Source of the DNA: a bacterium
GTDB lineage: Bacteria; Planctomycetota; JAFGQW01
Reading direction: 5' to 3'
Assembly: GCA_030426805.1 (NCBI GenBank)
Contig: JAUHXU010000003.1
Coordinates: 665,488-729,487 of the forward strand
DNA: 64,000 nucleotides
The notes beneath the pieces are model-generated. The model was not told the origin of the DNA. It made no database searches and saw nothing but the letters and a program-made list of their open reading frames with translations. A program made the translations under genes and the position numbers. This document shows positions 4,363 through 53,475 of this stretch, in pieces. The first letter of the stretch is position 1, and every line of letters begins with the position of its first letter.

Positions 4363-4407
4363 CGGCGACACGTTTGAGTTGACGTGTCGCCGCAGACGAC
4401 GTATCTT
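4363..4407 (+). promoter_or_regulatory. Promoter TTGACG-N17-TATCTT for fic, embedded in a 10-bp-arm inverted repeat (CGGCGACACG-N10-CGTGTCGCCG)
   Basis: -35 at 4379-4384 and -10 at 4402-4407. The ATG at 4414 lies about 7 nt after the -10, which suggests a leaderless transcript. Inverted-repeat arms are at 4363-4372 and 4383-4392. Confidence 0.4.
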
Positions 4408-4413
4408 CCAGAT

Positions 4414-5556
4414 ATGTCGTCAAAACGCCATTCTGCGAACATGACCTGGGCTCCCGATCGCCCTTACAACGACCTGCCGCCCCTCCCGCCGGCCGCAGAC
4501 GTCGAGACGAAGCCCGTCCTCCGGCGGTGCGCGACCGCGCGAGCCGCCCTCGGCGAGCTCAAACACGCCGTCGACCTGATCCCGAATCAGGGCATCCTCC
4601 TGAACACGCTCCCGCTCCTCGAGGCCCAGGCCAGTTCGGAGATCGAGAACGTCCTCACGACCGCCGATGCCCTTTTCCGCCACCTCGAAGCGGAGCGGGA
4701 CGTCGACCCGGCCACCCGCGAGGCACTCCGCTACCGGGAAGCCCTGATGGACGGCTACCGGGCACTCGCCGACCGTCCGCTCGGCACGCGCACGGCCGAG
4801 GCGATCTGCACGCGCATCAAAGGCGTCGACATGCGCGTCCGCGTCGTGCCCGGCACCACGATCGCGAATGCGGCGACCGCGGAGACGATCTACACGCCGC
4901 CCGACGGCGAGTCCCGGCTCCGCGACCTGCTCGCGAACTGGGAGCGCTTCCTGCACGAACCCTCCGAGCTCGACCCGCTGATTCGGATGGCGATCGCACA
5001 CTATCAGTTCGAGGCGATCCACCCGTTCACGGACGGCAACGGCCGCACCGGGCGGATCCTGAACAGTCTCTACCTCGTGCAGCAGGGGCTCATCGCACTG
5101 CCCGTGCTCTACATGAGCCGCTACATCATCGCAAACAAGCGCGACTACTACCGCATGCTCGCGGCGGTCACGCGCGACGACGACTGGGAACCGTGGATCG
5201 TCTACATGCTGTCGGTGATCACCGACACGGCGCAGTGGACCACGGCCAAGATCTCGGCGATCCGCTCGCTGGCCAACCAGACGAACGAACACGTGCGGCG
5301 CCACCTGCCGAAGATCCACAGTCGCGAGCTGATCGACGTGCTCTTCGAGCAGCCGTATTGCCGTATCGGCAACGTCACCGACGCGGGCATCGTCAGGCGG
5401 CAAGCGGCGTCACGCTACCTGCAGCAGCTCGCGTCGATCGGCGTGCTCGAGGCGCACCGCATCGGCCGCGAGTTGCTGTTCACGCACCCCCGCTTGCTCC
5501 ACCTCCTGACGACCGACGCGAACGACTTCGCGCCGTTCGAGCCTACTGCACCGTGA
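4414..5556 (+). CDS. Fic-family protein (class II Fic AMPylator/adenylyltransferase)
   Basis: Canonical Fic motif HPFTDGNGRTGR is present. An N-terminal inhibitory-helix-like motif SSEIEN matches (S/T)xxxE(G/N). Length about 380 aa. The ORF-track start at 4384 (GTG) lies inside the -35 box, so the ATG at 4414 is preferred. Confidence 0.8.
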   Translation: MSSKRHSANMTWAPDRPYNDLPPLPPAADVETKPVLRRCATARAALGELKHAVDLIPNQGILLNTLPLLEAQASSEIENVLTTADALFRHLEAERDVDPATREALRYREALMDGYRALADRPLGTRTAEAICTRIKGVDMRVRVVPGTTIANAATAETIYTPPDGESRLRDLLANWERFLHEPSELDPLIRMAIAHYQFEAIHPFTDGNGRTGRILNSLYLVQQGLIALPVLYMSRYIIANKRDYYRMLAAVTRDDDWEPWIVYMLSVITDTAQWTTAKISAIRSLANQTNEHVRRHLPKIHSRELIDVLFEQPYCRIGNVTDAGIVRRQAASRYLQQLASIGVLEAHRIGRELLFTHPRLLHLLTTDANDFAPFEPTAP

Positions 5557-8757: not shown

Positions 8758-8793
8758 GACCAGCTTCTGGCCACCGGTCACCAGTTTCTGGTG
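8758..8793. promoter_or_regulatory. Two adjacent palindromes, GACCAGCTTCTGGCC and CACCAGTTTCTGGTG, in the fxsA/efflux divergent intergenic region; candidate operator
   Basis: CACCAGTTTCTGGTG (8779-8793) is a perfect 15-nt palindrome. The upstream copy (8758-8772) has a perfect 11-nt core. They lie about 70 nt upstream of the first efflux gene. Confidence 0.3.
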
Positions 8794-8863: not shown

Positions 8864-10273
8864 GTGTCGGCCATGCTCGATCGATCCCACCGCGTGGCCA
8901 TCGCCGCCGCGCTCCTGACGCTCGCCGGCTGCGCGGCTTCGGGCCCGGGTTTCCGCGCCGACGAGACGCCGGCACTCGCGCCCGCGCGCACGACGCCGGC
9001 CGCGCCAGCCGCGGTCACACCGCGGAAGCGATCCGACGAGCCTGCGCGGCTGCACGACTCCGACGGTCGCCTCTCGCTCGCGGGCGCCCTGCGCACCGCA
9101 CTGGAGACGAGCCCGCGCATCCGCGCCGCGCGCGAAGCCGCCGGCGCAGCGGCAGCCCGCGAAGGACACGTCGCCGCATTGCCGGATCCGATGGTGCGCC
9201 TCGGCTGGTACGCCGAACCGATCGAGACCCGAACCGGCCCACAACGCTGGTCGCTCGCCGTGCAACAGGCGATCCCGTGGCCGGGCGCGCTCACGGCCAC
9301 CGCGCGGGTCGCCGAGGCGGGCCGCCGTGTCGCAGAGACGCGGGCAGCGATCACGACGCGCGACGTGCTCGTCGACGTCGCGCGCACCTACCACGAACTC
9401 GACTACCTGCACCGTGCCCGTCAGACGACGACGGCGATCACGCGCGCCCTCGAACGGCTGGTCGCATTCGCCGCGCGAGGTGACGACGACGGACAGGCAC
9501 GCATCCCCGAGACGGTCCGCGCCGAGACGTGGCTCGTGCGCACACGCAACGACGCGCTGATGCTCGAGGAACTCGAACGCACCGAACGCGCACGACTCCG
9601 CTCCCTGCTCGGCCTCTCCCCCGACGCGTCGATCGGCACGCCTCGCGGCATCATCGCGATACCGTTGAATGCATCGGTCGACGCTCTGGCTGCACGCGCG
9701 GAGCAGGGCAACCACGATCTCGCGCTCGCCGCGCTCGAGGCCGAACACGCCGAGCGCGACGCCGAGCGCCTCGCGACGCGCAGCTATCCCCAACTCGCGA
9801 TCGGCGGCCGCTACATCGCGACCGAACGGCGCGACGACGCGGACCCGCGCGGCAACGGGGACGACCCGCTGTTCCTCGAACTCGGGGTGTCGATCCCGAT
9901 CTGGCTCGGCGCGAACGGCGCGGCACACCGCGAGGGCGCGAGTCGTGCGCGCGCCGCCGCGCACGCGCACGACGCGATGCGTCACCGGCTGCGTGCCGAC
10001 ATCGCGCGGGCCTACTGGCGCGCCGCGAACGCCGAACGGTTGTGGCACCTGCATCGCGACGCGTTCGTCCCGCAGGCGCAGCGCGCGGCTGCATCCGCGG
10101 AAGCGCTGTTCGACGAGGGCCACGCGTCGTTCACGGCCGTCGTCGAGACACTCGCCGCGTGGCACCAACTCGAACTCGCGATGCACCGCGCCCGCGCCGA
10201 CTACTTGCAGACGATCGCCGCGATCGAACGCCTCGTCGGCGCGCCGCTCGCTCGCACCGGAGACGACCGATGA
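8864..10273 (+). CDS. TolC-like outer membrane efflux protein (OMF lipoprotein, CusC/CzcC-like), copy 1
   Basis: Signal peptide plus lipobox (LLTLAGCAAS). An alpha-helical, Ala/Arg-rich TolC-like repeat structure, about 470 aa. GTG start at 8864 (ATG at 8873 is an alternative). Confidence 0.75.
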   Translation: MSAMLDRSHRVAIAAALLTLAGCAASGPGFRADETPALAPARTTPAAPAAVTPRKRSDEPARLHDSDGRLSLAGALRTALETSPRIRAAREAAGAAAAREGHVAALPDPMVRLGWYAEPIETRTGPQRWSLAVQQAIPWPGALTATARVAEAGRRVAETRAAITTRDVLVDVARTYHELDYLHRARQTTTAITRALERLVAFAARGDDDGQARIPETVRAETWLVRTRNDALMLEELERTERARLRSLLGLSPDASIGTPRGIIAIPLNASVDALAARAEQGNHDLALAALEAEHAERDAERLATRSYPQLAIGGRYIATERRDDADPRGNGDDPLFLELGVSIPIWLGANGAAHREGASRARAAAHAHDAMRHRLRADIARAYWRAANAERLWHLHRDAFVPQAQRAAASAEALFDEGHASFTAVVETLAAWHQLELAMHRARADYLQTIAAIERLVGAPLARTGDDR

Positions 10274-11781
10274 TCCGCGCAGCACTCGCGCTCGTCGTCG
10301 TGGTCGTCGCCGGTTGCGCCCACCCCGCGCCGGCGCCGACGACGACGCCGTTCGCGCGCGACTTCATCGATGCGGCAGACGCGGCAGACGCGGCGGCCGC
10401 CGAAGAGCCGGCGAGCGCACCCGTCCCGTCGGCCGAGCCCGCCGAGCGACCGGCGGTCCGCGGCCGCGACGACGAACTCGCCGCGACCCTCGGCGGCTCC
10501 GCGCCGCCGATCGACCTGACCGACGACGACCGCTTCGCGTCGTGGCTCGCTGAACCGCGCACAGCCGACGCGCTGATGCGCGCCGCCTGGTTGCGCCATC
10601 CGGCCGTCGCCGCTGCACGCGCGAAGCACCGCGCCGTCGCCCATCGCTACGACCAAGCGCACTACCTCGCCGACACCGTCGGCCGCTACCGCACGTTCAC
10701 CCGCACCCAGATGCAGCGGATCGGTCCGTCCGGCGCCGCGGGCACGCGCGCCGCCGAGTCGATGCTCGTCCCGGCGCCCTCGATCGCGACGCTGCGTGAA
10801 CGCCTCGCGACGCTCGCGACCGACGACGCCTGGCAACGACTGCGCAAGACGATCGTCGACCGGGCGGCGGACGTTCTGGACGCGACCGCGGCACTGCGAC
10901 TCGCCGCGAACCTCGAGCGGATCGCGACCGCGCATGCGGCGCTCCTCGGCGACCTCGAACCGGTCGTGCAGCGACGCGTGTCCGCGGGGCACGGCAGCCG
11001 CGCCGACGTGCTGCGCATCCGCGCCGCAATCGCCGACCTCGAACGCGAGGCGACGGTCCGCGCCGCGGAGCGGACGCACGCGACGACGTGGCTGCGCACG
11101 GCACTCGCTTGCGACGGCACGCCCGAGGTCCGACTCGCGTCCGCGCCGCGCTGGGCGGCGCCGCCGGCAGCCGCCGACCTCGAGCGCGTCGCGCGCACCG
11201 ACGCACCGGCAAGTCGAATCGCGGCGATCGCCGAGGCGCGGGCCGATGCGGCGATCGCGCTCGCCGAACGCATGACGATCCCGCAGGTCGACCTCGGCTC
11301 GACACGCGTGGAGCGCGGGATGACCGGCGACGCCGGCGACGCGCGCACGCCGATGTTGACGCCGACACGGCCCCGCGTCGACGTCGGCCCGATCGGCTTC
11401 GCGCCGACGACCGCGATGCTCGACGAGTTGCGCGAGCGACGCGCGGCGGCGCGCGAACACGTGCGGAGCGTCGCGCGCGACACGACGACGGCGGCGTCCG
11501 CCGCGCGCACGCGCGTGATCGACGCCGATGCACGCTTCGCGGTCCACGAATCGCGGCTCGTCCCGCTGAGCCGCCAGGCATACGACACGCTGCTCGGCGC
11601 CTATGCGGGCCGTCGCGCCGCGTTCGTCGACGTGATTCGCGCCGCCGAGGAGCGGCTGCGCGTCGACCGCGGCCTCGCGCAAGCACAGCACGACGCGACC
11701 CGCGCGCGCGCGACGCTCCTCCGAGCGACCGGCGATGCGCGCACGATCCCCTTCGCACCCACCGCCGGAGACGACCGATGA
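10270..11781 (+). CDS. TolC-like outer membrane efflux protein (OMF lipoprotein), copy 2
   Basis: The ATG overlaps the upstream stop (ATGA). Lipobox VVAGCAHP. It ends in ...TGDDR, as copy 1 does, and has similar composition, which suggests a tandem paralog. Confidence 0.7.
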   Translation: MIRAALALVVVVVAGCAHPAPAPTTTPFARDFIDAADAADAAAAEEPASAPVPSAEPAERPAVRGRDDELAATLGGSAPPIDLTDDDRFASWLAEPRTADALMRAAWLRHPAVAAARAKHRAVAHRYDQAHYLADTVGRYRTFTRTQMQRIGPSGAAGTRAAESMLVPAPSIATLRERLATLATDDAWQRLRKTIVDRAADVLDATAALRLAANLERIATAHAALLGDLEPVVQRRVSAGHGSRADVLRIRAAIADLEREATVRAAERTHATTWLRTALACDGTPEVRLASAPRWAAPPAAADLERVARTDAPASRIAAIAEARADAAIALAERMTIPQVDLGSTRVERGMTGDAGDARTPMLTPTRPRVDVGPIGFAPTTAMLDELRERRAAAREHVRSVARDTTTAASAARTRVIDADARFAVHESRLVPLSRQAYDTLLGAYAGRRAAFVDVIRAAEERLRVDRGLAQAQHDATRARATLLRATGDARTIPFAPTAGDDR

Positions 11782-12467
11782 AGACACTCGTCGTGCCCGT
11801 AGTCGCCGCGATCGTCGCTGGCGTCGCGATCGCGATCCTGATTCGCGCGGGCGGATCCCCGCCGCGACCGACACCCGCCCCGGCGTCCCACGCGCATGCC
11901 GGCCACGCGATGCCGGACAAGCCGAAGAAAGCCGACGCGCACGCGGGACACGCGAAGCCCGCTACACCGACCGACCCGAAACCGGCGGACCCGGCACCGT
12001 CTCCGCCCGACACGCTGCTCGCCCGCCTCGTCGACGCCGGCTACCGGGACGCCGGCAACGAGACGTGCCCGATCATGGGCAACGCGTCCGACGGCGACGA
12101 CCCGACCGTGATCGCCTACAACGGCTGGCTCGTTCGCTTCTGCTGTCCCGGCTGCGACACCCGATTCCTCGCGTCGCCGCGCGACCACCTGCGGGCACTC
12201 CGCGACGGCGGCGACACGATTCCCGACGCACTCCTCGCGGCGGACGCGCACCCCGCGGTCGTCCGCGCGAACAACACCGCGTGCCCGATCACCGGCGCAC
12301 CGGTCGACGACAAGAGCCCGACGATCGTGCACCGCGGAGTCGTCGTGCGGGTGCGCGACACCGACGCGCTCGTCGCGTTCGCGAAGGCGCCCGACCGTGC
12401 GCTCGCCGAGGCCGCAAAGACCGGGACCGTCCCCGCGGACCGCCTCCCCGGCGGAGGTGAACGATGA
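11778..12467 (+). CDS. Membrane-anchored periplasmic His-rich / Cys-motif putative metal-binding protein
   Basis: ATGA overlap with the upstream gene. An N-terminal TM segment is followed by the His-rich stretch HAHAGHAMPDKPKKADAHAGHAKP. Two repeats follow with CPI(M/T)G ... and FCCPGC Cys motifs. It sits inside the heavy-metal efflux operon. Confidence 0.6.
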   Translation: MKTLVVPVVAAIVAGVAIAILIRAGGSPPRPTPAPASHAHAGHAMPDKPKKADAHAGHAKPATPTDPKPADPAPSPPDTLLARLVDAGYRDAGNETCPIMGNASDGDDPTVIAYNGWLVRFCCPGCDTRFLASPRDHLRALRDGGDTIPDALLAADAHPAVVRANNTACPITGAPVDDKSPTIVHRGVVVRVRDTDALVAFAKAPDRALAEAAKTGTVPADRLPGGGER

Positions 12468-13858
12468 CCGGACTGCGACTCGGCTTGGTGCTTGGCGGAA
12501 TCGTGCTCGGGCTCGCGGTCGGGTTCGTGCTGCCGGACCGGTGGCTGTTCGACGGCGTGACCGCGGAATCGGCGCCATCGGGCGCCGGCACTCAGTACGC
12601 GTGCCCGATGTTCTGCGTCGTCGAGAAGACGCTTCCCCCCGACGGCAAGTGCTCGGTGTGCGGCATGGAACTCGCGGCGATCTCGTCGGCGCCGACGATC
12701 GACCGGCACGAGCGCGCGATGATCGGCCTCGAGCCGGCGCGAATCCGGGCGCTGCCGCTCGTGCGTGAGGTACGCCTCTTCGGCGAGGTCGACTACGACG
12801 ACACGCGCATCGTCGCCGTGTCGGCGCGCGCCGACGGCTGGCTCGAGCGGGTCGACGCCCGCGCGACGTGGACCGACGTGAACGAAGGCGACCCGTTGTT
12901 CGCGCTCTACAGCCCGGCGCTCTTCGAGGCGCAGCAGGAGTTCTTGAGCCTGCGCAACGCCGACGCGACGCTTCGCGACAGCGCGGTCGAACGACTCCGA
13001 CTGCTCGGCCTCGACCGCCGCGAGATCGACGCGATCGCCGACGCCGGCGCACCCCAGCGCACGCTCACCTACCGAGCGCCGCGCGCGGGCACGATCGTTC
13101 GGCGTCGCGCGGTCGAAGGTGCCGCGGTCAAACAGGGCCAGGAGATCTACGCGATCGCCGACCTCGATCGGGTGTGGCTCCAGATGGAGGCGTTCGAGAG
13201 CGACCTGCCGTTGCTCCGGCCCGGCGTCGAGGTGCGCATCACCGCCGATGTGCACCGCGCCGACGAACCGGTCGAACGCACCGGCCGCATCGCGTTCGTC
13301 GACCCGGTCGTCGATCCGCGTGCACGCACCGTCCGCGTGCGCGTCGAGATGGACAACCCCCGCACGGACGGTCGCTACGCACTGCTGCCGGGCCAGCGCG
13401 TCGTCGGCGTCGCGCGGTTGCCGCTCGGTGCCGACGAGCCGGACGGCGAACCGGTCCCGACGCTCGCGATCCCGCGCGACGCGATCCTGCGCACCGGGGA
13501 GCGCACGATCGTCTACGTCCTGCACGGGATGACCGACGAGGGCGCACCGGACTACGCGATCGACGCCGATGCACTCCCCGACACGCTCGGCTACGAACTC
13601 GTCGAGGTGGCGCTCGGTCCGCTCGCGCGGCGCGCGGACGCCGAGACCCGTGAGGACTACTATCCGCTCGTCCGCGTCGTGCCGCCGCCACCCGGCGAGG
13701 GCAACGACCTGCGGCTGCGCCGCCTGCGCGCCGGTCACGTGATCGCGCGCCACGGCGCGCTGCTGCTCGACTCGCAGGCACAACTCGCGGGCCGCCCGTC
13801 GCTCCGCTTCCCCACCGGTCGCGACGGCGCGCCCGCCGACCCGCACGCGAACCACTGA
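12464..13858 (+). CDS. Efflux RND periplasmic adaptor (membrane-fusion protein, CusB/CzcB-like) with an N-terminal heavy-metal-binding domain
   Basis: ATGA overlap. YACPMFCVVEKTLPPDGKCSVCGMEL is the YxCPMHP...CPxCGM heavy-metal-binding motif. The rest is HlyD-like beta-barrel and lipoyl-type adaptor sequence. Confidence 0.85.
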   Translation: MTGLRLGLVLGGIVLGLAVGFVLPDRWLFDGVTAESAPSGAGTQYACPMFCVVEKTLPPDGKCSVCGMELAAISSAPTIDRHERAMIGLEPARIRALPLVREVRLFGEVDYDDTRIVAVSARADGWLERVDARATWTDVNEGDPLFALYSPALFEAQQEFLSLRNADATLRDSAVERLRLLGLDRREIDAIADAGAPQRTLTYRAPRAGTIVRRRAVEGAAVKQGQEIYAIADLDRVWLQMEAFESDLPLLRPGVEVRITADVHRADEPVERTGRIAFVDPVVDPRARTVRVRVEMDNPRTDGRYALLPGQRVVGVARLPLGADEPDGEPVPTLAIPRDAILRTGERTIVYVLHGMTDEGAPDYAIDADALPDTLGYELVEVALGPLARRADAETREDYYPLVRVVPPPPGEGNDLRLRRLRAGHVIARHGALLLDSQAQLAGRPSLRFPTGRDGAPADPHANH

Positions 13859-13871
13859 TCGGGAGTCGTCC

Positions 13872-16800
13872 GTGCTCAACGCGATGATCCGCTTCTCCGT
13901 TCGCAACCCGGTGCTCGTGCTGGTGTTCACCGCCGCCGCGTTCGCATGGGGGTGGTCGGCGTGGACGAACAAGACCGTCGACGCGATCCCGGACATCAGC
14001 GAGAACCAGGTGATCGTCGACGCCGCGTGGCCCGGACGCTCACCGAAGGACGTCGAAGACCAGGTGACGTTCCCGCTGTCGACGCGACTCGCGGGCGTCA
14101 AGGGCGTCAAGGAAGTCCGCGGCCTCTCCGGCTTCGGGTTCAGTCGGATCTACGTCGTGTTCGACGAGCCGATCCGGCTCTTCGAGCGCTCGGCGATCGA
14201 CGACTTCTACGAGTCGCGCACGCGCGTGCTCGAGCACCTCGCGACGGTCGCGTCCGATCTGCCGCCGGACGTGACGCCGGAACTCGGCCCCGACGCGACC
14301 GCGCTCGGGCAGATCTTCATGTACACGGTCGACGGGCCGTACGACCTCGCCACGCTGCGCAGCGTCCAGGACTTCGTCGTGAAGTACGAGCTGCAAGCGG
14401 TGCCCGGCGTCGCCGAGGTCGCGAGCGTCGGCGGGCAGGTGCGCGAATACCAGATCGACGTCGACCCCGACAAGATGCGCCACTACCACGTCGGCATCGC
14501 CGAGATCGCGCAGGCGATCCGCCGGGCGAACCTCGACGTGGGCGCGAAGACCCTCGAACAGGGCGGCGAAGAGGCGATCCTCCACGGCCTCGGCTTCATC
14601 GATTCGATCCGCGACATCGAAGAAGTGCCGATCCTCACGCACCAGGCGATGACGCCGGATCGCGACGCGCGTGCGGGGTTGCGCACGCTCGTCGTGCCGC
14701 GAACCGACGGCGGGATCGTCGCCGGCGACCGCGGCGCGCCGGCGCACCGACCGGTGCTCGTGCGCGACGTCGCGACCGTGAAGATCGGGCCGGCGTTCCG
14801 GCGCGGCGCACTCGCGGACGGCGCCGGCGAGCGCACCGGCGGCATCGTCACGATGCGGCTCGGGGCGAACCCCCGCGACGTGATCGAGGGCGTGCGCGCG
14901 GCGATCCTCCGGATGAACGAACCGGCGAACTCGATCCTGCCGCCGGGGGTCCGGATCGTGCCGTTCTACGACCGCACGCAGCTGATCGACGAAACCGTCG
15001 AGACGCTCGAGACCGCACTCGGTCAGGAACTGTGGATCACGATGTTCGTCGTGCTCGTGTTCCTGCTGCACTTGCGATCGGCGCTCGTGATCTCGGTGAC
15101 GCTGCCACTCGCGGTGATCTCGAGCTTCGTGCTGATGGACCTCACCGGCGTCGCGTCGAACATCATGAGCCTGACCGGCATCGCGATCGCGATCGGCACG
15201 ATGGTCGACATGGGCGTCGTGATGACGGAGAACATCTACCAACGGTTGCAGGCCGACGGTGGCGCTCGACCGCGACGCGAGGTGATCGAGGAGGCCGCGT
15301 GCGAGGTCGGACCGGCGCTGCTGACCGCCGTCGCGACGACCGTGATCAGCTTCATCCCGATCCTGTTCCTGACGGATCAGGAAGGCAAGCTCTTCCGACC
15401 GCTCGCGTGGACGAAGACGTTCGCGCTCGGGATGGCGGCGATCGCCGGCGTCTTCGTCGTGCCGGTGCTGTGCCGACTGTTCCTGCGCGAGGGCGCCGCG
15501 GTCCGCGCGCCGGGACAGGGTCGCGCGCGACGAATGCTGACGGTCGCGGCCGTCGCTTCCCTGCTCGGATTCGTCGCCGCGCGGCTGGGGCTGCTCGGCC
15601 TCGAGCCGCTCGTCGCATTCGCGGTCGTCGCCGTGCTCGTCGCGACCGCGGTCGCGTGGATGATGCGCGAACGGCTCGTGCCGATCGACGACAACCCGGT
15701 CACGCGCGCGATCCACGGCGCCTATCGTCCGACGATGCGGTGGATCCTCGACCACAAGCTCACGTTCCTCTCGATACCGCTGCTGATGATCGTCGTCGGG
15801 CTCGTGGTCGCCATCGGCCTGCCGACTGCGCTGCGCCCGGTGCGCGCGATCGTCGGCGACGGCGTCGACCGACTGAAGCCGGTCGCGTGGCTGTCGGAGA
15901 AGTTCGGCGGCATCGGCCAGGAGTTCATGCCGCCGCTCGACGAGGGCAGCCTCCTCTACATGCCGTCGCTGCTGCCGCGCGCGTCGCTCGACGAGGCGCT
16001 CGCGGTGATGCAGCGGCAGAACGCGCAGATGGAACGCGTGCCCGAGGTCGCCAAGGTGATGGGCAAGCTCGGTCGCGCGGAGACCGCGCTCGACCCGGCG
16101 CCGGTCGGGATGTTCGAGACGATCGTCGTGTTGAAGCCGCGCTCGGAATGGCGGCCGGGCAAGCTCAAACGCGACATCGTCAACGAACTGATGCGTGTCG
16201 CGCACACGCCCGGCGCGGCCGCCGGTCCGGGTGCGTGGCTGCAGCCGATCGAGACGCGCGTCGTGATGCTCAGCTCCGACGTGCGCGCGCCGCTCGCGAT
16301 CCGGCTGATCGGCAGCCCGCGCGACGCGAGCGGCCGCACGCTCGACGCGAAGGAGGGAATCGTCGAACTCGAGCGCGTCGCCGCGAAGATCCGCGACGTC
16401 GTCGCGGCCGTCCCCGGCGCGGCCGGCCCCAACGTCGAGAACCTCGGCGGCAAGCCCTACATCGAGTTCGAGATCGATCGCGAGCGCGCGGCGCACTACG
16501 GCGTGTCGGTCGGCGACGTGCAGGACGTGATCGCGACCGCGATCGGCGGCATGGTCGTCGGGCAGACGCTCGAAGGGCGCGAACGCTACGGCATCCGTGT
16601 CGCGTACGAGCGTGAGCGCCGCGACCGACTCGAGTCACTCGACCGCGTGCTCGTTCGGACCGGCACGCGCGGTCACGTGCCGCTCTCGTACGTCGCGACC
16701 GCGAAGCAGACGACCGGGCCGGCGATGATCAAGACCGTCGACGGACGGCTGCGACTCCACGTGATGTTCGCGGCGCGCGACCGCGACGAGCGCTCGGTCG

Positions 16801-17501
16801 TGCTGGACGCGATGAGCCACATCCGCGACTGGCGCCAGGGCGAGATCGCCGCCGGACGGGTCGATCCGATCCCGGCCGGCGTGTCCGTCGAGCCGGCCGG
16901 CCGCTACGAATCGCAGAAGCGCGCGCGCGACCGCTTCATGGTGCTGATCCCGATCTGCTTCGCGCTGATCCTGCTGTTGCTCTACCTCAAGTTCAACGAC
17001 TGGCTGATGACGGTCAACGTACTGCTGGCGGTGCCGGTCTGCGTCGCCGGCGGCGTCGTGCTGATGGCTCTCTTCCCCGACCTGAAAGACGCGATGTTCG
17101 CGATCGGCCTCTGGGACCAGCCCAGCACCGGACCGGTCTACTTCACGGTGGCGGTCGTCGTCGGGTTCATCGCGCTCGCGGGCATCGCGACCGACGACGG
17201 CGTCGTGATCGGTGCGTTCCTCGAGCAGTCGTTCCGCGAGCGCAAGACCGACACGATCCGCGGCATCCGCGATGCGACGATCGAAGCCGGCCTCCGCCGC
17301 ATCCGCCCGTGCCTGATGACGACCGCGACGACGATCCTCGCGCTCTACCCGATCCTCGCGAGCACCGGCCGTGGCTCCGACGTCGCCCAGCCGATGGCGA
17401 TCCCGGCGGTCGGCGGCATGATCGCCGGACTCGTCTCGCTGTTCATCGTCCCCTGCGTCTACTGCTGGGTGCAGGAGGTGCGCCTGAAGCGGAGCGGCTG
17501 A
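13872..17501 (+). CDS. Heavy-metal efflux RND transporter, CusA/CzcA family (HME-RND), with extra internal insertions
   Basis: MIRFSVRNPVLVLV...; twelve-TM RND architecture; the LDEGSLLYMP motif is typical of CusA/CzcA. It is 1209 aa against a typical length of about 1045, because of an extra hydrophobic hairpin before TM7 and an extended periplasmic loop. GTG start at 13872 with a GGGAG RBS. Confidence 0.9.
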   Translation: MLNAMIRFSVRNPVLVLVFTAAAFAWGWSAWTNKTVDAIPDISENQVIVDAAWPGRSPKDVEDQVTFPLSTRLAGVKGVKEVRGLSGFGFSRIYVVFDEPIRLFERSAIDDFYESRTRVLEHLATVASDLPPDVTPELGPDATALGQIFMYTVDGPYDLATLRSVQDFVVKYELQAVPGVAEVASVGGQVREYQIDVDPDKMRHYHVGIAEIAQAIRRANLDVGAKTLEQGGEEAILHGLGFIDSIRDIEEVPILTHQAMTPDRDARAGLRTLVVPRTDGGIVAGDRGAPAHRPVLVRDVATVKIGPAFRRGALADGAGERTGGIVTMRLGANPRDVIEGVRAAILRMNEPANSILPPGVRIVPFYDRTQLIDETVETLETALGQELWITMFVVLVFLLHLRSALVISVTLPLAVISSFVLMDLTGVASNIMSLTGIAIAIGTMVDMGVVMTENIYQRLQADGGARPRREVIEEAACEVGPALLTAVATTVISFIPILFLTDQEGKLFRPLAWTKTFALGMAAIAGVFVVPVLCRLFLREGAAVRAPGQGRARRMLTVAAVASLLGFVAARLGLLGLEPLVAFAVVAVLVATAVAWMMRERLVPIDDNPVTRAIHGAYRPTMRWILDHKLTFLSIPLLMIVVGLVVAIGLPTALRPVRAIVGDGVDRLKPVAWLSEKFGGIGQEFMPPLDEGSLLYMPSLLPRASLDEALAVMQRQNAQMERVPEVAKVMGKLGRAETALDPAPVGMFETIVVLKPRSEWRPGKLKRDIVNELMRVAHTPGAAAGPGAWLQPIETRVVMLSSDVRAPLAIRLIGSPRDASGRTLDAKEGIVELERVAAKIRDVVAAVPGAAGPNVENLGGKPYIEFEIDRERAAHYGVSVGDVQDVIATAIGGMVVGQTLEGRERYGIRVAYERERRDRLESLDRVLVRTGTRGHVPLSYVATAKQTTGPAMIKTVDGRLRLHVMFAARDRDERSVVLDAMSHIRDWRQGEIAAGRVDPIPAGVSVEPAGRYESQKRARDRFMVLIPICFALILLLLYLKFNDWLMTVNVLLAVPVCVAGGVVLMALFPDLKDAMFAIGLWDQPSTGPVYFTVAVVVGFIALAGIATDDGVVIGAFLEQSFRERKTDTIRGIRDATIEAGLRRIRPCLMTTATTILALYPILASTGRGSDVAQPMAIPAVGGMIAGLVSLFIVPCVYCWVQEVRLKRSG

Positions 17502-42882: not shown

Positions 42883-42918
42883 GCCGCCTACCCTCGTCCG
42901 CCGGAAAGGCAGGGTTCG

Positions 42919-45516
42919 ATGCCGTACGCTCTCCGCGCATTGCTCGCGGTCTTCGCACTCCTCGTGTCCGGCTGTGGCGGCGGAGAAGCGCCCGAGCCCC
43001 CGATCGCGACGGCCGTCACGCAACTGCGGGTTCAGGACGTCGTCCGCGACGAGAAGCTGATGGGGCTCGACATCAGTTGGCGGGGCAAGCTGGATCCGGC
43101 GGCAGTGAAGGCGTTGCAGGCGCACTCGGCGATCGCCGGCGTCGACCGGCGCATGGACGAAGCGTCCGGGACGATGCGCGTCGACGTTCGTGCGAACCAC
43201 GGCGACCTCGCCCGGCTGATCCTCTACACCGACCCGAAGTCCGATGATGTGCTGGGCTACTACTGCGAGTTGCGGAGTCCGGCACGCAAGCCACGTCGCC
43301 CGGGCCCCGACGCGTGGGGTGAGCGATGCCGTCGTCAGTTCGAGATGAGGCCGCTCGGTTTCTTCGGCACGGTGGACTCGCAAGGACCCACGCTGGTCTT
43401 CGACACGGACCTGCCCCGTCGGTATGCCGCGGTGCGGGATCGGCGCCTGGTCGGTTTCCTCGTCGCGACGGCAGACTTCTTCCGTCCGGATTGCCACGGC
43501 TTCCAGTCGCGGGCCGAGATCCTCGCCGACGCGAAACGACGGATCGAGGAGAAGCGCCCGCGCGAGAACCCGCTGATCGACTACGAGATCGCGGGCGTCG
43601 AGTTGAAGGAGGTCGGCCGCCAGTTGGCGGCACTGCGCAAGACGATCGCCAAAGAGCGCCACCGGGAGCAGCAGCGAGAAGGCGCGAAGCGGTGGGAGGC
43701 GTTTCTCGCGGAAGTGCGCGACGAGCCGTTCGACGTGAAGATGCAGCGCTACGCGGATGCGTACGGGCGACTGCCGACGTCCGGACGGTTCGCCGTCGAC
43801 CGGGCGCTCCGCGCCGACGCGCGGCGCGAGCTGGAGGCGACGGACGTCGGGGTCGCGCGGCGTTCGATGCTATCCAGCCTCGCGAAGTCGGGCTACCTGT
43901 CCCGGGCGAAGACGCTCCTCGCGTATGCGAATACGATCGATGGTTCACCGAACCTCGAGGCACTCGGAGCGTGGTATGCAAATCGCGACCCGCGCGCGAA
44001 CAAGCGGTTCGCCCAACGCGTCAACCAAGCGGTTCGGTTGCGCGCGTTGCACTTGCTCGCGGCCGAACGCAAGGCGCTCGCGAACCGAACGGGCGGCGCA
44101 ACGTACACCGCGCTCGGCGCGGTGAGGCGCGCGCTGAACGCACGACGCACGACGGTGACGCTCGACCTCCGCGCGACGGAGCGCTGGCTGGAGACGTGTC
44201 GCGCGTTCGACACGCTCACCGATCCGTTCGAGCGGGTCGCCGCAGCACCGTGGCTGACCGCGCCGACGAAGGCTGTCGGGGAGCGGGTCGCGCGGGCCGT
44301 TTGCCCCGCGTTGAAGCGCCAGCTGGTCGAGCGGGCGGGCGCCGCTGCCGAAGCCGGCCGGAAAGCGACGGCGGCAGCGTGCTGGCTCGCGGCGGCCGTC
44401 GCGGGCCGCGACACGTGGCCGACCGCGACGACCGGGGAGCAGCTCATCGGCAAACGGGCCACCCCGGACGATCCGCTGGCGCAAGCACGACACGCGTTGC
44501 TGATCGAGAGCCTGCAGTTCGTACCGACGCCCGACGACGGCGCGCGCGACCTCGACCCGGTGCTGATCGACGGGGCGGCGCTGGAGTGGCCGATCGTGTC
44601 CAAGCTCGGCATCGCCTACTCGCCGAGCGCGAGGCGACGAAAGGCGATCAACGAGATCGGTGGCCGAACGGACAAGGTCACGCGCCTGCTCCGTCGCAAC
44701 GGCCGTGTCGCGTGGGTCGACATCCTGCGCTCGACGCCTGACGAGCGCCTGCCCGGGACACCGGTTCAGTTCCTCGCGCCGACGCGTGACGCACTGTCGG
44801 CGAAGTCGCGCAGAGAATCCGACGCGCTGAACCGCGAGAGCGAGGCATTGCGTGCGCGGGCGAAGGAACTCGAGGACTTGCCGCCGACCAAGGACTCCAA
44901 CGAGTTCGCGCGGCGATGGAAGATGCGCGAGGAGTTCGCGAAGCGACAACAGCGCTACAACGAGCGTACGGCCGAATGGGCCGACGCGGCGGCGAAGGAA
45001 CTCGCGCCTCGCTACGCCCGCGTGCGCTACGCGCGACGCACAGTGCTCGACGACTACGTCGACACGAGCTTGTTGGTCTACTCGCGACAGGTGGGCCGCA
45101 GCCTCGGCGGCGGCGAGGCGAACGAACGCGAGGTCGCGTGGATGCGCTGGTTCTTCGGGCGATCGACGCCGGGGTTCGAAGGGCTGCCGATCGAGCGGGG
45201 TGACAATCCGAACACACGCATGCGACGGTGCGATCGCCTCGAGCGGGAGGCACTGGAGCAGCCGGGCCGAGCCGAGATGGGGCGTGCAATCGCGCGCTTC
45301 TGGGACGCGGCCGAGGCGTGCGACCTCCCCCGGCGCGCCCCGCGCACGCGCAAGCTGCTCGATCAATACCGGACGACGTTCACGGCCGCACATGTGCTCG
45401 AGCACGTCGTCAAGGCGGCGAAACACGGCAAGACGCTCGAAGCCGAGGTTCTCTCGAAAGACGAGCGCCAGGAACTCGAGCGGAGCGAGCAGCGAAAGAA
45501 AACGCGACGCCGCTAA
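42919..45516 (+). CDS. Large hypothetical lipoprotein (865 aa)
   Basis: Lipobox LLVSGCGGG. Charged and helical; no recognisable domain. Confidence 0.65.
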   Translation: MPYALRALLAVFALLVSGCGGGEAPEPPIATAVTQLRVQDVVRDEKLMGLDISWRGKLDPAAVKALQAHSAIAGVDRRMDEASGTMRVDVRANHGDLARLILYTDPKSDDVLGYYCELRSPARKPRRPGPDAWGERCRRQFEMRPLGFFGTVDSQGPTLVFDTDLPRRYAAVRDRRLVGFLVATADFFRPDCHGFQSRAEILADAKRRIEEKRPRENPLIDYEIAGVELKEVGRQLAALRKTIAKERHREQQREGAKRWEAFLAEVRDEPFDVKMQRYADAYGRLPTSGRFAVDRALRADARRELEATDVGVARRSMLSSLAKSGYLSRAKTLLAYANTIDGSPNLEALGAWYANRDPRANKRFAQRVNQAVRLRALHLLAAERKALANRTGGATYTALGAVRRALNARRTTVTLDLRATERWLETCRAFDTLTDPFERVAAAPWLTAPTKAVGERVARAVCPALKRQLVERAGAAAEAGRKATAAACWLAAAVAGRDTWPTATTGEQLIGKRATPDDPLAQARHALLIESLQFVPTPDDGARDLDPVLIDGAALEWPIVSKLGIAYSPSARRRKAINEIGGRTDKVTRLLRRNGRVAWVDILRSTPDERLPGTPVQFLAPTRDALSAKSRRESDALNRESEALRARAKELEDLPPTKDSNEFARRWKMREEFAKRQQRYNERTAEWADAAAKELAPRYARVRYARRTVLDDYVDTSLLVYSRQVGRSLGGGEANEREVAWMRWFFGRSTPGFEGLPIERGDNPNTRMRRCDRLEREALEQPGRAEMGRAIARFWDAAEACDLPRRAPRTRKLLDQYRTTFTAAHVLEHVVKAAKHGKTLEAEVLSKDERQELERSEQRKKTRRR

Positions 45517-52162: not shown

Positions 52163-53395
52163 TCAACGCACCGAGAACGCGGCCGACGGGGCGACGTCGA
52201 TTCCCCCCGGAAACGCCGGGTTCTCCGCGACCGCAGCGACGAACAGCCGAAGCCCGACGGGCGCCGACGCCGGCAGCTTCACGGCGATCGTCGCCGAGCC
52301 GTTCGCATCCAGCCGCCCGCGCAACCCCTGCGTCACGCCCGGGATGTCGCCGTTGCCGATCGTCACCCGCGCGAGCGCGTCGATCGCGAGGTTGATCGTC
52401 CGGCGACCCGGCAGCGGAATCGCCGGCCGCAGTCCGGACAGCGACATTGCGGCGCGATACGGTCGGCCGGCGCTGCCCGGCATCGACAGGCGAAGCGAGT
52501 ACGTCGTGCCCGGGCGCGCGCTCCCGCTCCCGACGAGCTTGTGGCTGCCGTAGATCGCGATCGACCGGAACACCTGACTGTGCTCGCGTTTCACCGGCCA
52601 CGTGCGCAACACCGCGCCCTTCAGGGTCACCTCGAGGATATCGTCGAGCCGCACGAGGAAGAGGTTACCGGTCTCCGGGTCCGTCGTCACCGAGTAGAAC
52701 CCACCCGGCCCTTGCCATTGCAATACGGTTCCGCCGTTCTGATCGAGCACGAGGTAGTCGCTGACGGTCGAGGAGGCGTTCCCCACGACGGCGTAGTTCC
52801 CGCTCGCGTCGTCGAACGACACGACACCGGGAAACGGCAACGTCGTCAGCGTCGTGATCGCGGATCCCGTCATGCGGAGCAGATGCGCCCCACTCGGAGA
52901 GGTGGTGCCGCTGCGAGCCACGACGATGTCCCCGGAGTCGCGATCGATCGTCGGAAAGCCCGCACCACTCGAGAACAGCGCCACGGTGCTGAAGAGCCCG
53001 GAGGCGGACAGGCGGACCACCGCCGCCGATCGCGACGTCACGAACCCGGCGATGAAGCGCCCGTCCTGGTCGAGCGTCATGCCGGCCATGCCCGAATACA
53101 TCGACGTCGCGTACGACTGCGCGGACACGAGCACGCCGCTCGGGGACATGCGTCCGAAGATCAGCGGCCTGGCCTGGTCGACGATCCGAATGTCGGTGTT
53201 GTTCGCCGCCATCCACACACTTCGTCGCGAGTTCGACGGCAGCGGACCGACCAGCGCTTCCGCGCCGGTCACGCGATCGATCGATCGCACGCCGGTGTCG
53301 GACGACACGAGGAGGTCGCCCGGCTTGGGCTGGGCCCCGACGCCGGCCGTGACGGCGGCGAGCACGAGCGGGGCGAGGACGATACGGGCGATCAT
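52163..53395 (-). CDS. Secreted hypothetical protein, paralog family
   Basis: MIARIVLAPLVLAAVTAGVGAQP (signal peptide). The C-terminus YSLRLSMPGSAGRPYRAAMSLSGLRPAIPLPGRRTINLAIDALARV...GLRLFVAAVAE is the family signature. Confidence 0.75.
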   Translation of the reverse strand: MIARIVLAPLVLAAVTAGVGAQPKPGDLLVSSDTGVRSIDRVTGAEALVGPLPSNSRRSVWMAANNTDIRIVDQARPLIFGRMSPSGVLVSAQSYATSMYSGMAGMTLDQDGRFIAGFVTSRSAAVVRLSASGLFSTVALFSSGAGFPTIDRDSGDIVVARSGTTSPSGAHLLRMTGSAITTLTTLPFPGVVSFDDASGNYAVVGNASSTVSDYLVLDQNGGTVLQWQGPGGFYSVTTDPETGNLFLVRLDDILEVTLKGAVLRTWPVKREHSQVFRSIAIYGSHKLVGSGSARPGTTYSLRLSMPGSAGRPYRAAMSLSGLRPAIPLPGRRTINLAIDALARVTIGNGDIPGVTQGLRGRLDANGSATIAVKLPASAPVGLRLFVAAVAENPAFPGGIDVAPSAAFSVR

Positions 53396-53475
53396 CAGGG
53401 ACTCCCGGATTGCTGTCGTGGCCTCGACGCACCGAGTATAGCCACGATCGGCGCCGGTCGGGGTATCATCCCGGG

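What the first reader, a model, noticed from the sequence alone, without database searches (positions are those of the whole stretch)
8864..17501. Fully translationally coupled heavy-metal RND efflux operon with two tandem outer-membrane factor genes
The gene order is OMF1, OMF2, metal-binding protein, MFP (with N-terminal heavy-metal-binding domain), HME-RND. Every junction is an ATGA overlap or a near-overlap. Tandem duplicated TolC-like OMFs, both with lipoboxes and both ending in (T/A)GDDR, are atypical for CusCBA/CzcCBA systems. They might form hetero-oligomeric channels or provide redundancy. No regulator (CusRS/CzcRS/MerR type) is encoded adjacent. The only candidate control element is the paired palindrome at 8758-8793.
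Basis: partly seen in the sequence, partly recalled or inferred. Interest (0 to 1): 0.55.

Follow-up and report, generated by a model that had tools for sequence, protein, structure and literature searches.

The report
Copper efflux pump with paired outer-membrane subunits
This is a copper/silver-type efflux operon whose outer-membrane exit component is encoded by two very different TolC-like genes; in other bacteria these two genes are almost always adjacent and sometimes fused, a paired design I could not find described in the literature.

Summary
Five + strand genes (8864-17501) are joined by three ATGA overlaps and one 13-nt gap. They encode OMF1, OMF2, a YHS/TRASH-like metal-binding protein, a CusB-type adaptor with an N-terminal heavy-metal-binding motif, and a CusA-like RND. 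The RND is 40% identical to E. coli CusA, and the Met573/Met623/Met672 copper site is conserved.

The two OMFs are not recent duplicates. BLASTP sees nothing (E=0.17), but profile comparison shows full-length homology (E=8e-45, 18% identity).

OMF1 is a canonical barrel-forming OMF. OMF2 keeps the TolC helices and tip motifs. Its two beta-hairpin regions are polar, vary in length across the family (13-54 residues), and are not predicted as strands.

The OMF1-OMF2 pair recurs in 50 of 80 related genome loci. 40 of 46 junctions examined are ATGA overlaps. At least six loci and three database proteins carry the two fused in one polypeptide. OMF2 found by its own motif had OMF1 upstream in 11 of 11 informative contigs.

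The best reading is a Cus-type Cu(I)/Ag(I) pump with an equimolar two-subunit OMF module. The geometry of that module is unknown. I found no published description. It is a new variant of a known kind.

The parts
8759..8791 (.). Two 12-nt imperfect palindromes, ACCAG[C/T]TTCTGG, 21 nt apart, in the divergent FxsA/OMF1 intergenic region. Candidate operator; function untested.
   Evidence: with up to one mismatch, 4 matches in the window against 0.27 expected; the two exact copies are here. No sigma-70-like promoter was found. The motif is absent from related loci except the identical contig L001 and one copy in L081.
8864..10273 (+). OMF1: canonical TolC/CusC-type outer-membrane factor lipoprotein, 469 aa. 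The ATG at 8873 gives 466 aa.
   Evidence: Pfam OEP 110 bits in 2 stretches. Lipobox LAGC. AF2 with only 4 sequences predicts four beta strands, E109-117, E127-137, E310-320 and E336-343. Both hairpins show alternating hydrophobic positions.
10270..11781 (+). OMF2: divergent TolC-like lipoprotein, 503 aa, with conserved helices and tip motifs but degenerate beta-hairpin regions and an N-terminal extension of about 100 aa.
   Evidence: Pfam OEP only 32 bits, in the C-terminal half. No sequence match in the PDB. hhalign against the OMF1 family gives E=8e-45 over 397 columns. The AF2 model (pLDDT 83) has long TolC helices and no strands; hairpin regions 155-164 and 342-366 have pLDDT below 50. 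All 44 significant Foldseek PDB hits are TolC-family OMFs.
11778..12467 (+). Metal-binding protein, 229 aa. It has an N-terminal hydrophobic anchor or signal, a His-rich stretch, one CPIMGN...FCCPGC YHS/TRASH-like unit and one degenerate CPITG unit. It sits where cusF sits in E. coli.
   Evidence: Sequence read. Pfam gives only sub-threshold TRASH (17 bits) and YHS (14 bits) matches. Homologue P0219 (50% identity) carries precomputed YHS and TRASH hits (marked faint). Small proteins at the same operon position in other loci pass the YHS model (49.7 bits, cutoff 30.3) and match this protein weakly by phmmer.
12464..13858 (+). CusB-type membrane-fusion (periplasmic adaptor) protein, 464 aa, with the N-terminal motif YACPMFC...CSVCGM.
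   Evidence: HlyD_D23 195 bits; CusB alpha-domain HlyD_D4 30.5 bits; HMBD 20.2 bits, below the 23.6 cutoff. Orthologous MFPs in related loci pass the HMBD model at 29-90 bits.
13872..17501 (+). CusA-like HME-RND transporter, 1209 aa, with insertions relative to E. coli CusA.
   Evidence: TIGR00914 784 bits against a cutoff of 701. Best PDB match is CusA at 650 bits; ZneA scores 351. It is 40% identical to E. coli CusA. M573, M623, M672, E567, E625, D617, R669, R83, D405 and E412 are conserved.
10257..10273 (+). First copy of the 17-nt junction CCGGAGACGACCGATGA, holding the Shine-Dalgarno GGAG and the overlapping stop and start.
   Evidence: exactly two copies in the window, at 10257 and 11765.
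11765..11781 (+). Second copy of the 17-nt junction, at the OMF2/metal-binding-protein boundary.

Best explanation
The locus is a single, translationally coupled operon for a Cus-type tripartite efflux pump, most probably exporting Cu(I)/Ag(I). It differs from the textbook system in having a two-subunit outer-membrane module.

Inferred working, by analogy with CusCFBA:
- The membrane-anchored or periplasmic YHS/TRASH-like protein and the Cys/Met motif at the N-terminus of the MFP capture the metal.
- They pass it to the three-methionine site in the periplasmic cleft of the CusA-like RND.
- The RND uses the proton gradient to push the ion up through the adaptor ring and out through the outer-membrane duct.

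OMF1 is the canonical lipoprotein that forms the beta-barrel pore.

OMF2 is an ancient, very divergent paralogue. It keeps the TolC alpha-helical tunnel elements and periplasmic tip motifs. It has lost a competent membrane barrel and gained an N-terminal extension of about 100 residues. It is made in equal amounts with OMF1, through the ATGA coupling here and through gene fusion in other genomes. It acts as OMF1's obligate partner in building, extending or gating the exit duct.

Status of each step:
- Shown here: the gene content, the coupling, the CusA signature, the homology and divergence of the two OMFs, the conserved pairing and the fusions.
- Inferred: physical association of OMF1 and OMF2, the metal specificity, and the role of the YHS-like protein.
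- Unknown: the stoichiometry and geometry of the OMF1-OMF2 assembly.
For: Pump type:
- TIGR00914 scores 784 bits against a cutoff of 701.
- CusA scores 650 bits against 351 for ZneA.
- The Met triad and relay residues are conserved in an alignment with E. coli CusA.
- The MFP has CusB-type domains.

OMF1 is canonical.

OMF2 is TolC-like but barrel-degenerate:
- hhalign gives E=8e-45 and Foldseek hits only OMFs.
- AF2 with 37 sequences predicts no strands, whereas OMF1 gets four strands with only 4 sequences.
- The hairpin columns are polar and Pro-rich.
- Hairpin 2 ranges from 13 to 54 residues across the family. It is 13 residues in L085, which otherwise has the same operon.

Obligate pairing:
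- 50 of 80 genome loci found with an OMF1 motif have OMF2 immediately downstream, then MFP and RND.
- 40 of 46 junctions examined are ATGA overlaps preceded by GGAG-like sites.
- 11 of 11 informative metagenome contigs found through an OMF2 motif have OMF1 immediately upstream.

Fusions, always in the order OMF1-OMF2:
- Proteins P0102, P0150 and P0152, with 3-4 OEP repeats.
- Loci L021, L043, L062, L060, L064 and L050, from at least three lineages. L060 and L064 have a different gene order, MFP-RND-fused OMF.
Against: - No direct evidence of a physical OMF1-OMF2 complex. I could not run a multimer or fused-chain prediction.
- A 1:1 ratio does not fit the canonical three-protomer OMF, so the geometry is unexplained.
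- In the Desulfobacterales members the OMF2 hairpin regions keep OMF1-like lengths and a weak amphipathic pattern. Some membrane insertion therefore cannot be excluded.
- AF2 hairpin confidence was only moderate even for OMF1 (pLDDT 52-65).
- Related RND/MFP sets work with a single OMF1-like gene in 22 of 80 loci, so OMF2 is not universally needed.
- Several CusA transmembrane relay residues differ here: M486L, M501C, M1009A, E939D and K984C. Transport details may therefore differ from E. coli.
- Metal specificity is inferred from sequence only.
Confidence: 0.65

Rival explanations
1. OMF1 and OMF2 assemble in one mixed ring, a true heteromeric TolC-like channel. Both contribute helices and (short) strands to a single barrel, for example a 3+3 assembly larger than the canonical 12-strand duct.
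For: - The two families are collinear, and the hairpin segments have equal length in most members.
- There is a weak amphipathic pattern in OMF2 strands of Desulfobacterales members.
- The 1:1 coupling and the fusions fit a defined hetero-oligomer.
Against: - OMF2 hairpins are polar and Pro-rich, vary in length and are nearly deleted in L085.
- AF2 predicts no strands for OMF2.
- A 1:1 mixed ring cannot be a three-protomer barrel. A six-protomer ring would mismatch a hexameric adaptor, by established OMF-MFP tip-to-tip geometry.
Confidence: 0.2
2. The two OMFs are independent homotrimeric channels that provide redundancy or serve alternative substrates or conditions.
For: - Each has its own signal peptide and lipobox.
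- Bacteria often carry several OMFs (general knowledge).
Against: - OMF2 was never found without OMF1 (11 of 11).
- Fusion into one polypeptide has arisen or been kept in at least three lineages.
- The OMF2 barrel region is degenerate.
- 40 of 46 junctions are translationally coupled overlaps.
Confidence: 0.08
3. OMF2 is a decaying, non-functional duplicate carried along in the operon.
For: Weak Pfam score, loss of barrel-like sequence, and low-complexity Ala/Arg-rich composition in this high-GC genome.
Against: - Intact ORFs with conserved motifs (for example RY..G.TSF.DV tips, GVGPMKG, FPFPG) across Desulfobacterota, a Planctomycetaceae MAG and other lineages.
- 370 representative clusters in the library match at E<=0.001.
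- The helices are modelled at very high confidence, pLDDT 95-98.
Confidence: 0.03
4. The pump is a Czc/Zne-type divalent-cation (Zn/Co/Cd) exporter rather than a Cu(I)/Ag(I) exporter.
For: - The NCBIfam family model covers both CusA and CzcA.
- OMF1's best NCBIfam match is the divalent-metal exporter subunit IhpA, far below cutoff (44 bits against 650).
- Several CusA transmembrane Met-pair residues are replaced.
Against: - CusA scores 650 bits against 351 for ZneA.
- The Met triad is intact.
- The TM4 motif AIGTMVDMGVVMTEN resembles the CusA motif AVGAMVDAAIVMIEN. From memory, it does not resemble the CzcA-type DFG..DGA..VEN motif.
- The HMBD and YHS/TRASH partners are Cys-rich, as expected for soft-metal binding.
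Confidence: 0.05

Closest known systems
E. coli CusCFBA copper/silver efflux system
   Same: - HME-RND that is 40% identical to CusA, with the M573/M623/M672 site, E567, E625, D405 and E412 conserved.
- CusB-type adaptor domains.
- A lipoprotein OMF of the OEP family.
- A small metal-binding protein encoded between the OMF and MFP genes, where cusF sits.
   Different: - Two OMF genes instead of one.
- The CusF position is taken by an unrelated YHS/TRASH-like protein; no CusF family hit appeared among the Pfam matches listed up to E=10.
- The MFP carries an N-terminal Cys/Met heavy-metal-binding motif.
- The RND is 162 residues longer, with two extra hydrophobic segments after TM6.
- K984, M501, M486, M1009 and E939 are substituted.
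- No CusRS genes are adjacent.
- All junctions are overlapped or nearly so.
Uncharacterised OMF1-OMF2-MFP-CusA-like operons of Desulfobacterales and relatives (e.g. Desulfosarcina widdelii L037, D. alkanivorans L040, NaphS2 L017) and the fused version in a Planctomycetaceae MAG (L050)
   Same: - Same OMF1 and OMF2 families in the same order, mostly with ATGA overlaps, followed by an HMBD-MFP and a CusA-like RND.
- The L050 RND is the closest found, at 54% identity. It shares the insertions and the M501C and K984C substitutions.
   Different: - Sequences are only 25-38% identical to the window's OMFs.
- Most Desulfobacterales operons lack the YHS-like gene and have a normal-length RND of about 1044 aa with all CusA Met pairs.
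- In L050 the two OMFs are one polypeptide.
MdtBC heterotrimeric RND (E. coli)
   Same: Precedent within tripartite pumps for two adjacent paralogous genes encoding one hetero-oligomeric component. Cited in PMC8277102.
   Different: That case concerns the inner-membrane RND, not the OMF. The searched portion of the same review (the first 300,000 characters held) contains no mention of hetero-oligomeric OMFs.
TolC-YbjP (lipoprotein partner of an OMF; PDB 9tg4 and 9v52; bioRxiv 10.1101/2025.03.19.644130)
   Same: Shows that an OMF can have a dedicated lipoprotein partner. These entries appeared among the fold-search hits and in a literature search.
   Different: From the entry and paper titles alone, YbjP appears as a separate lipoprotein partner rather than a TolC homologue. 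OMF2 is itself a full-length TolC paralogue.

Membership tests
HME-RND, CusA subtype | Passes the curated CusA/CzcA family model | tested here: met
   TIGR00914 scores 783.7 bits against a cutoff of 701.45.
HME-RND, CusA subtype | Three-methionine Cu(I)/Ag(I) site (M573, M623, M672) and the nearby residues E567, E625, D617 and R669 | tested here: met
   All are conserved in a MAFFT alignment with E. coli CusA, at window residues M697, M747 and M799. K678 is Arg.
HME-RND, CusA subtype | Transmembrane methionine pairs and proton-relay residues (M410-M501, M403-M486, M391-M1009, D405, E939, K984) | tested here: inconclusive
   M391, M403, M410 and D405 are kept. M486L, M501C, M1009A, E939D and K984C are substituted.
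HME-RND, CusA subtype | Closer to CusA than to divalent-cation HME-RNDs | tested here: met
   CusA scores 650 bits and ZneA 351 bits.
CusB-type membrane-fusion protein | CusB barrel-sandwich and short alpha-helical domains | tested here: met
   HlyD_D23 195 bits and HlyD_D4 30.5 bits. The NCBIfam CusB model scores only 69 bits against a cutoff of 390, so it is not an E. coli CusB equivalog.
HMBD (PF19335) heavy-metal-binding domain | Pfam model above its gathering score | tested here: not met
   20.2 bits against a cutoff of 23.6. The CPM...CxxCGM motif is present by eye, and orthologous MFPs pass the model.
Outer-membrane factor (OEP/TolC family): OMF1 | Two OEP repeats, a lipobox, and four beta strands with long helices | tested here: met
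   OEP 110 bits in 2 stretches. The AF2 model has 4 strands and TolC helices.
Outer-membrane factor (OEP/TolC family): OMF2 | Homology to OEP-family proteins and a TolC helical fold | tested here: met
   OEP 32.3 bits against a cutoff of 22, one stretch. hhalign against the OMF1 family gives E=8e-45. All significant Foldseek hits are OMFs.
Outer-membrane factor (OEP/TolC family): OMF2 | Membrane-spanning beta-barrel contribution (two amphipathic beta hairpins) | tested here: not met
   No strands, and pLDDT below 50 in both hairpin regions. Composition is polar and Pro-rich. Hairpin 2 is 13-54 residues across the family. This rests on prediction and sequence only, not experiment.
Outer-membrane factor (OEP/TolC family) | Homotrimeric assembly | not testable with these tools
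CusF metallochaperone | CusF-family domain | tested here: not met
   No CusF family hit for the 229-aa protein among the Pfam matches listed up to E=10.
YHS/TRASH metal-binding domain | Pfam YHS or TRASH model above its gathering score | tested here: not met
   TRASH 17.2 bits and YHS 13.6 bits, against cutoffs of 27 and 30.3. The motif C-x20-CC-x2-C is present. The relative P0219 and small proteins at the same position in other operons carry YHS hits.
CusCFBA operon | Adjacent CusRS two-component regulator | tested here: not met
   The flanking genes are FxsA, Fic, sulfotransferase-like and esterase.

The most novel reading that the evidence does not exclude
OMF1 and OMF2 form an obligate, equimolar hetero-oligomeric exit duct. 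A canonical barrel-forming TolC-like subunit is joined by a barrel-less TolC paralogue that contributes only alpha-tunnel elements, for example as a periplasmic extension, collar or gate. This would be the first heteromeric outer-membrane factor. It would break the rule that OMFs are homotrimers, and it is widespread in Desulfobacterota and present in Planctomycetota-like genomes.
Probability: 0.55. Interest if true: 0.8.

Novelty: new variant of a known kind. Interest (0 to 1): 0.62.

Why it matters
Outer-membrane factors of tripartite efflux and type I secretion systems are described as homotrimers. The comprehensive 2021 review lists a heterotrimer only for the RND MdtBC.

Here there is a conserved, translationally coupled and sometimes fused pair of very different TolC paralogues, one apparently without a membrane barrel. 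That points to an unrecognised way of building or regulating the exit duct.

The question is directly testable, because natural single-chain fusions exist that could be expressed for cryo-EM. The finding also defines two sequence families (OMF1 with the EPIETRxGPQ loop; OMF2 with YRAFT..GP and FPFPG) that current annotation lumps together as 'TolC family protein' or leaves without a domain hit.

For metal biology, it adds a Cus-type system in which a YHS/TRASH protein replaces CusF.

Tried and rejected
- The search for related loci with OMF2-family alignments (A2, A3) and with A4 failed for lack of a conserved 7-10-column stretch. I used the OMF1 loop motif instead, and an OMF2 DNA motif in metagenomes.
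- The word-indexed homologue search found only 3 OMF2 relatives. The profile version drifted to generic OMFs. The exhaustive representative search was the one that revealed the family and the fusions.
The last structure job went to OMF1 as a positive control.
- I could not identify the organism. Cluster look-ups and contig look-ups returned only unnamed Logan contigs, and the window's genome was not among the GTDB representatives retrieved.
- I wondered whether the long MFPs in single-OMF loci compensate for a missing OMF2. I rejected this, because the extra length is a C-terminal DUF3347 domain.
- The 12-nt palindrome is not conserved in any comparator locus, so its role stays untested.
- Six literature searches and three papers checked gave no description of tandem, fused or heteromeric OMFs. 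The library lacks most subscription-journal papers.

Full report
**Observation.** The window has about 70% G+C. On the + strand between 8864 and 17501 there are five consecutive genes:
- OMF1, 8864-10273, 469 aa. The GTG start gives this length; the ATG at 8873 is the start called on an identical public contig.
- OMF2, 10270-11781, 503 aa.
- A 229-aa protein, 11778-12467.
- An MFP, 12464-13858, 464 aa.
- An RND protein, 13872-17501, 1209 aa.

Three junctions are ATGA start/stop overlaps. The fourth is a 13-nt gap containing GGGAG. Both OMFs have lipoboxes, LAGC and VAGC, and both end in GDDR.

The shared ending has a simple cause. The OMF1/OMF2 and OMF2/next-gene junctions share an identical 17-mer, CCGGAGACGACCGATGA (10257 and 11765). 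It encodes G-D-D-R-stop and also supplies the GGAG ribosome-binding site and the ATG of the downstream gene.

The neighbours are FxsA (divergent), a Fic protein, a sulfotransferase-like protein (convergent), an esterase and polysaccharide-synthesis genes. None is a regulator, and none turned up among ten other large genes elsewhere in the window that I scanned.

The intergenic region holds two copies of ACCAG[C/T]TTCTGG, 21 nt apart. No sigma-70-like promoter was found.

**The inner-membrane and periplasmic parts.**
- The RND passes the curated CusA/CzcA model (784 bits against a cutoff of 701). It is much closer to CusA (650 bits) than to the Zn exporter ZneA (351 bits) among solved structures.
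- I fetched E. coli cusCFBA and aligned CusA with the window protein. They are 40% identical over 1022 positions.
- The Cu(I)/Ag(I) triad M573/M623/M672 is conserved, as are E567, E625, D617, R669, R83, D405 and E412. K678 is Arg.
- The transmembrane relay is only partly kept: M486L, M501C, M1009A, E939D and K984C.
- The protein has insertions. These include two extra hydrophobic segments (residues 554-578 and 579-600) between TM6 and TM7. The closest relative found, in a Planctomycetaceae MAG (L050, 54% identity), shares them.
- The MFP has CusB-type domains. Its N-terminal YACPMFC...CSVCGM motif scores just below the HMBD cutoff, while orthologues pass.
- The 229-aa protein has an N-terminal hydrophobic segment, a His-rich stretch and a CPIMGN...FCCPGC unit. 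It scores only sub-threshold against TRASH and YHS.
- Its relatives, and the small proteins found at the same operon position elsewhere, are YHS proteins. It therefore occupies the place of CusF without being a CusF.

**The two OMFs are homologous but very different.**
- OMF1 is an ordinary OEP-family protein (110 bits, two repeats).
- OMF2 scores 32 bits on one repeat, has no sequence match in the PDB, and is not detectably similar to OMF1 by BLASTP (E=0.17).
- An exhaustive HMMER search found 370 representative clusters related to OMF2.
- A profile of 37 of them aligns end to end with an OMF1 profile (hhalign probability 100%, E=8e-45, 397 columns, 18% identity). The condition 'not homologous' is therefore not met.
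- An AF2 model of OMF2 (37 sequences, mean pLDDT 83) has the long TolC helices at pLDDT 95-98. It has no beta strands, and pLDDT is below 50 where the two hairpins should be.
- All 44 significant Foldseek hits in the PDB are TolC-family OMFs.
- As a control, OMF1 modelled with only four sequences still gave the four expected strands.
- Column statistics over 45 orthologous pairs show the classic alternating hydrophobic pattern in OMF1 hairpins. The OMF2 equivalents are polar and Pro-rich.
- Across the OMF2 family the second hairpin varies from 13 to 54 residues. In L085, which has the same coupled YHS-OMF1-OMF2-MBP-MFP-RND operon, it is reduced to 13 residues.
- OMF2 keeps the canonical periplasmic tip motifs (RY..G.TSF.DV and Y..G...F.DV in the consensus). 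It also has an N-terminal extension of about 100 residues.

**The pair is a conserved unit.**
- I scanned one genome per species using the nearly invariant OMF1 loop motif [EL]PI[EQ]TR[TVL]G[PK]Q. This gave 80 loci.
- HMMs for the two families classify 50 loci as OMF1 followed directly by OMF2, 5 as single fused ORFs, 22 as single OMF and 2 as truncated. One further locus has OMF2 but its OMF1 was missed.
- L050, scored as 'single', is in fact a 932-aa fusion that contains the whole of P0102.
- Downstream there is almost always an HMBD-MFP and a CusA-like RND.
- In 40 of the 46 pairs examined the junction is an ATGA overlap preceded by a GGAG-like site.
- For the converse test I scanned metagenomes with an OMF2-specific DNA motif. 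This returned 14 OMF2 genes. All 11 with upstream sequence have OMF1 immediately upstream.
- Fused OMF1-OMF2 proteins, always in that order and with 3-4 OEP repeats, occur in at least three lineages. Two of these loci have a different operon order, MFP-RND-fusion (L060, L064).
- Tight coupling, co-inheritance in both directions and repeated fusion are the standard genomic signature of subunits of one complex.

**Mechanism.**
- I infer a Cus-type Cu(I)/Ag(I) pump. Metal is captured by the YHS-like protein and the MFP N-terminal motif, handed to the RND methionine site, and expelled through the adaptor and the outer-membrane duct. All of this is by analogy with CusCFBA.
- OMF1 supplies the barrel.
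- OMF2 is most likely an equimolar partner that contributes TolC-type helices but no competent barrel. It is tethered to the outer membrane by its lipid anchor, or to OMF1 by fusion.
- I cannot say how it docks. The options include beneath OMF1 as an extension, beside it as a collar or gate, or within a larger mixed ring.
- A 1:1 ratio does not fit the three-protomer OMF. That mismatch is what makes the case interesting.
- Redundancy and pseudogene explanations fit the data poorly. A Czc-type specificity is unlikely given the CusA signature.

**Comparison and novelty.**
- The system works like CusCFBA. As a member it fails several CusCFBA features: no CusF, no CusRS, an extra OMF, and altered transmembrane relay residues.
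- Its true relatives are uncharacterised operons in Desulfosarcina, NaphS2, Desulfatiglandales and other Desulfobacterota, and in a Planctomycetaceae MAG.
- Six literature searches and three papers checked gave no description of tandem, fused or heteromeric OMFs. The papers were a 2021 comprehensive review, a 2022 survey of 170,554 TolC-like proteins, and a 2022 review of bacterial uranium resistance. The library is incomplete, so prior description cannot be excluded.
- I classify it as a new variant of a known kind.

**Limits.**
- There is no experimental or multimer-model evidence for the complex.
- Barrel loss in OMF2 rests on sequence and monomer prediction.
- The source organism is unidentified.
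- The palindromic motif has no comparator.
- Metal specificity is inferred.

Noticed in passing
window 15531-15671 (RND residues 554-600): Two extra hydrophobic segments of about 20 residues lie between TM6 and TM7 of the CusA-like RND. This suggests a 14-TM topology. L050 shares them and L056/L066 share them in part; E. coli CusA and the Desulfosarcina orthologue lack them.
   Followed up: partly
window 15471-15473 and 17310-17312 (RND residues C534 and C1147): CusA M501 and the proton-relay residue K984 are both replaced by Cys, here and in L050. Other long relatives have Ala at both positions. This may be an altered transmembrane metal or proton relay.
   Followed up: no
window 9215-9244 (OMF1 residues 118-127, EPIETRTGPQ): The loop between the first two predicted beta strands of OMF1 would be extracellular. 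It is nearly invariant across phyla, and it was specific enough to fish 96 homologues out of 98 pattern hits. That degree of conservation is unusual for a surface loop of an OMF.
   Followed up: partly
window 10257-10273 and 11765-11781: An identical 17-nt junction, CCGGAGACGACCGATGA, sits at two successive gene boundaries. It explains the shared GDDR C-termini and may reflect gene conversion or selection on the coupling signal.
   Followed up: yes
window 8759-8791: Two ACCAG[C/T]TTCTGG imperfect palindromes lie 21 nt apart between fxsA and OMF1. They are not conserved in other loci. No cognate regulator was identified.
   Followed up: partly
L056 11749-13659; L058 2129-4312; L075 1247-3484; L077 11131-13026: In single-OMF relatives (Zixibacteria, Desulfobulbaceae/cable bacteria, Kiritimatiellota) the MFP is 630-745 aa. 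It carries a C-terminal DUF3347 domain in addition to HMBD.
   Followed up: partly
L078 9836-16203: One Desulfobacterales locus has an OMF1 of the pair-type clade (348 bits) followed directly by the MFP, with no OMF2. It may be a natural loss and would be a useful comparison.
   Followed up: no
L085 6711-7328 and 10001-11026: A related operon carries two multi-repeat YHS/TRASH-like proteins. One has three CP..GK...CC..C units and lies upstream of OMF1. The other is a duplicated version of the window's metal-binding protein.
   Followed up: no
window 42883-45516, 52163-53593 (- strand), 53353-56394: Large ORFs with coding-like GC3 have no Pfam domain at E<=1e-5. The surrounding genes are TPR, GH92, a DUF7948/beta-propeller protein and a PLD-like protein.
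   Followed up: no
window 4378-5556: A Fic/DOC-family adenylyltransferase-like gene (Fic_N, Fic and SoFic-like_C domains) lies a few genes upstream of the efflux operon.
   Followed up: no
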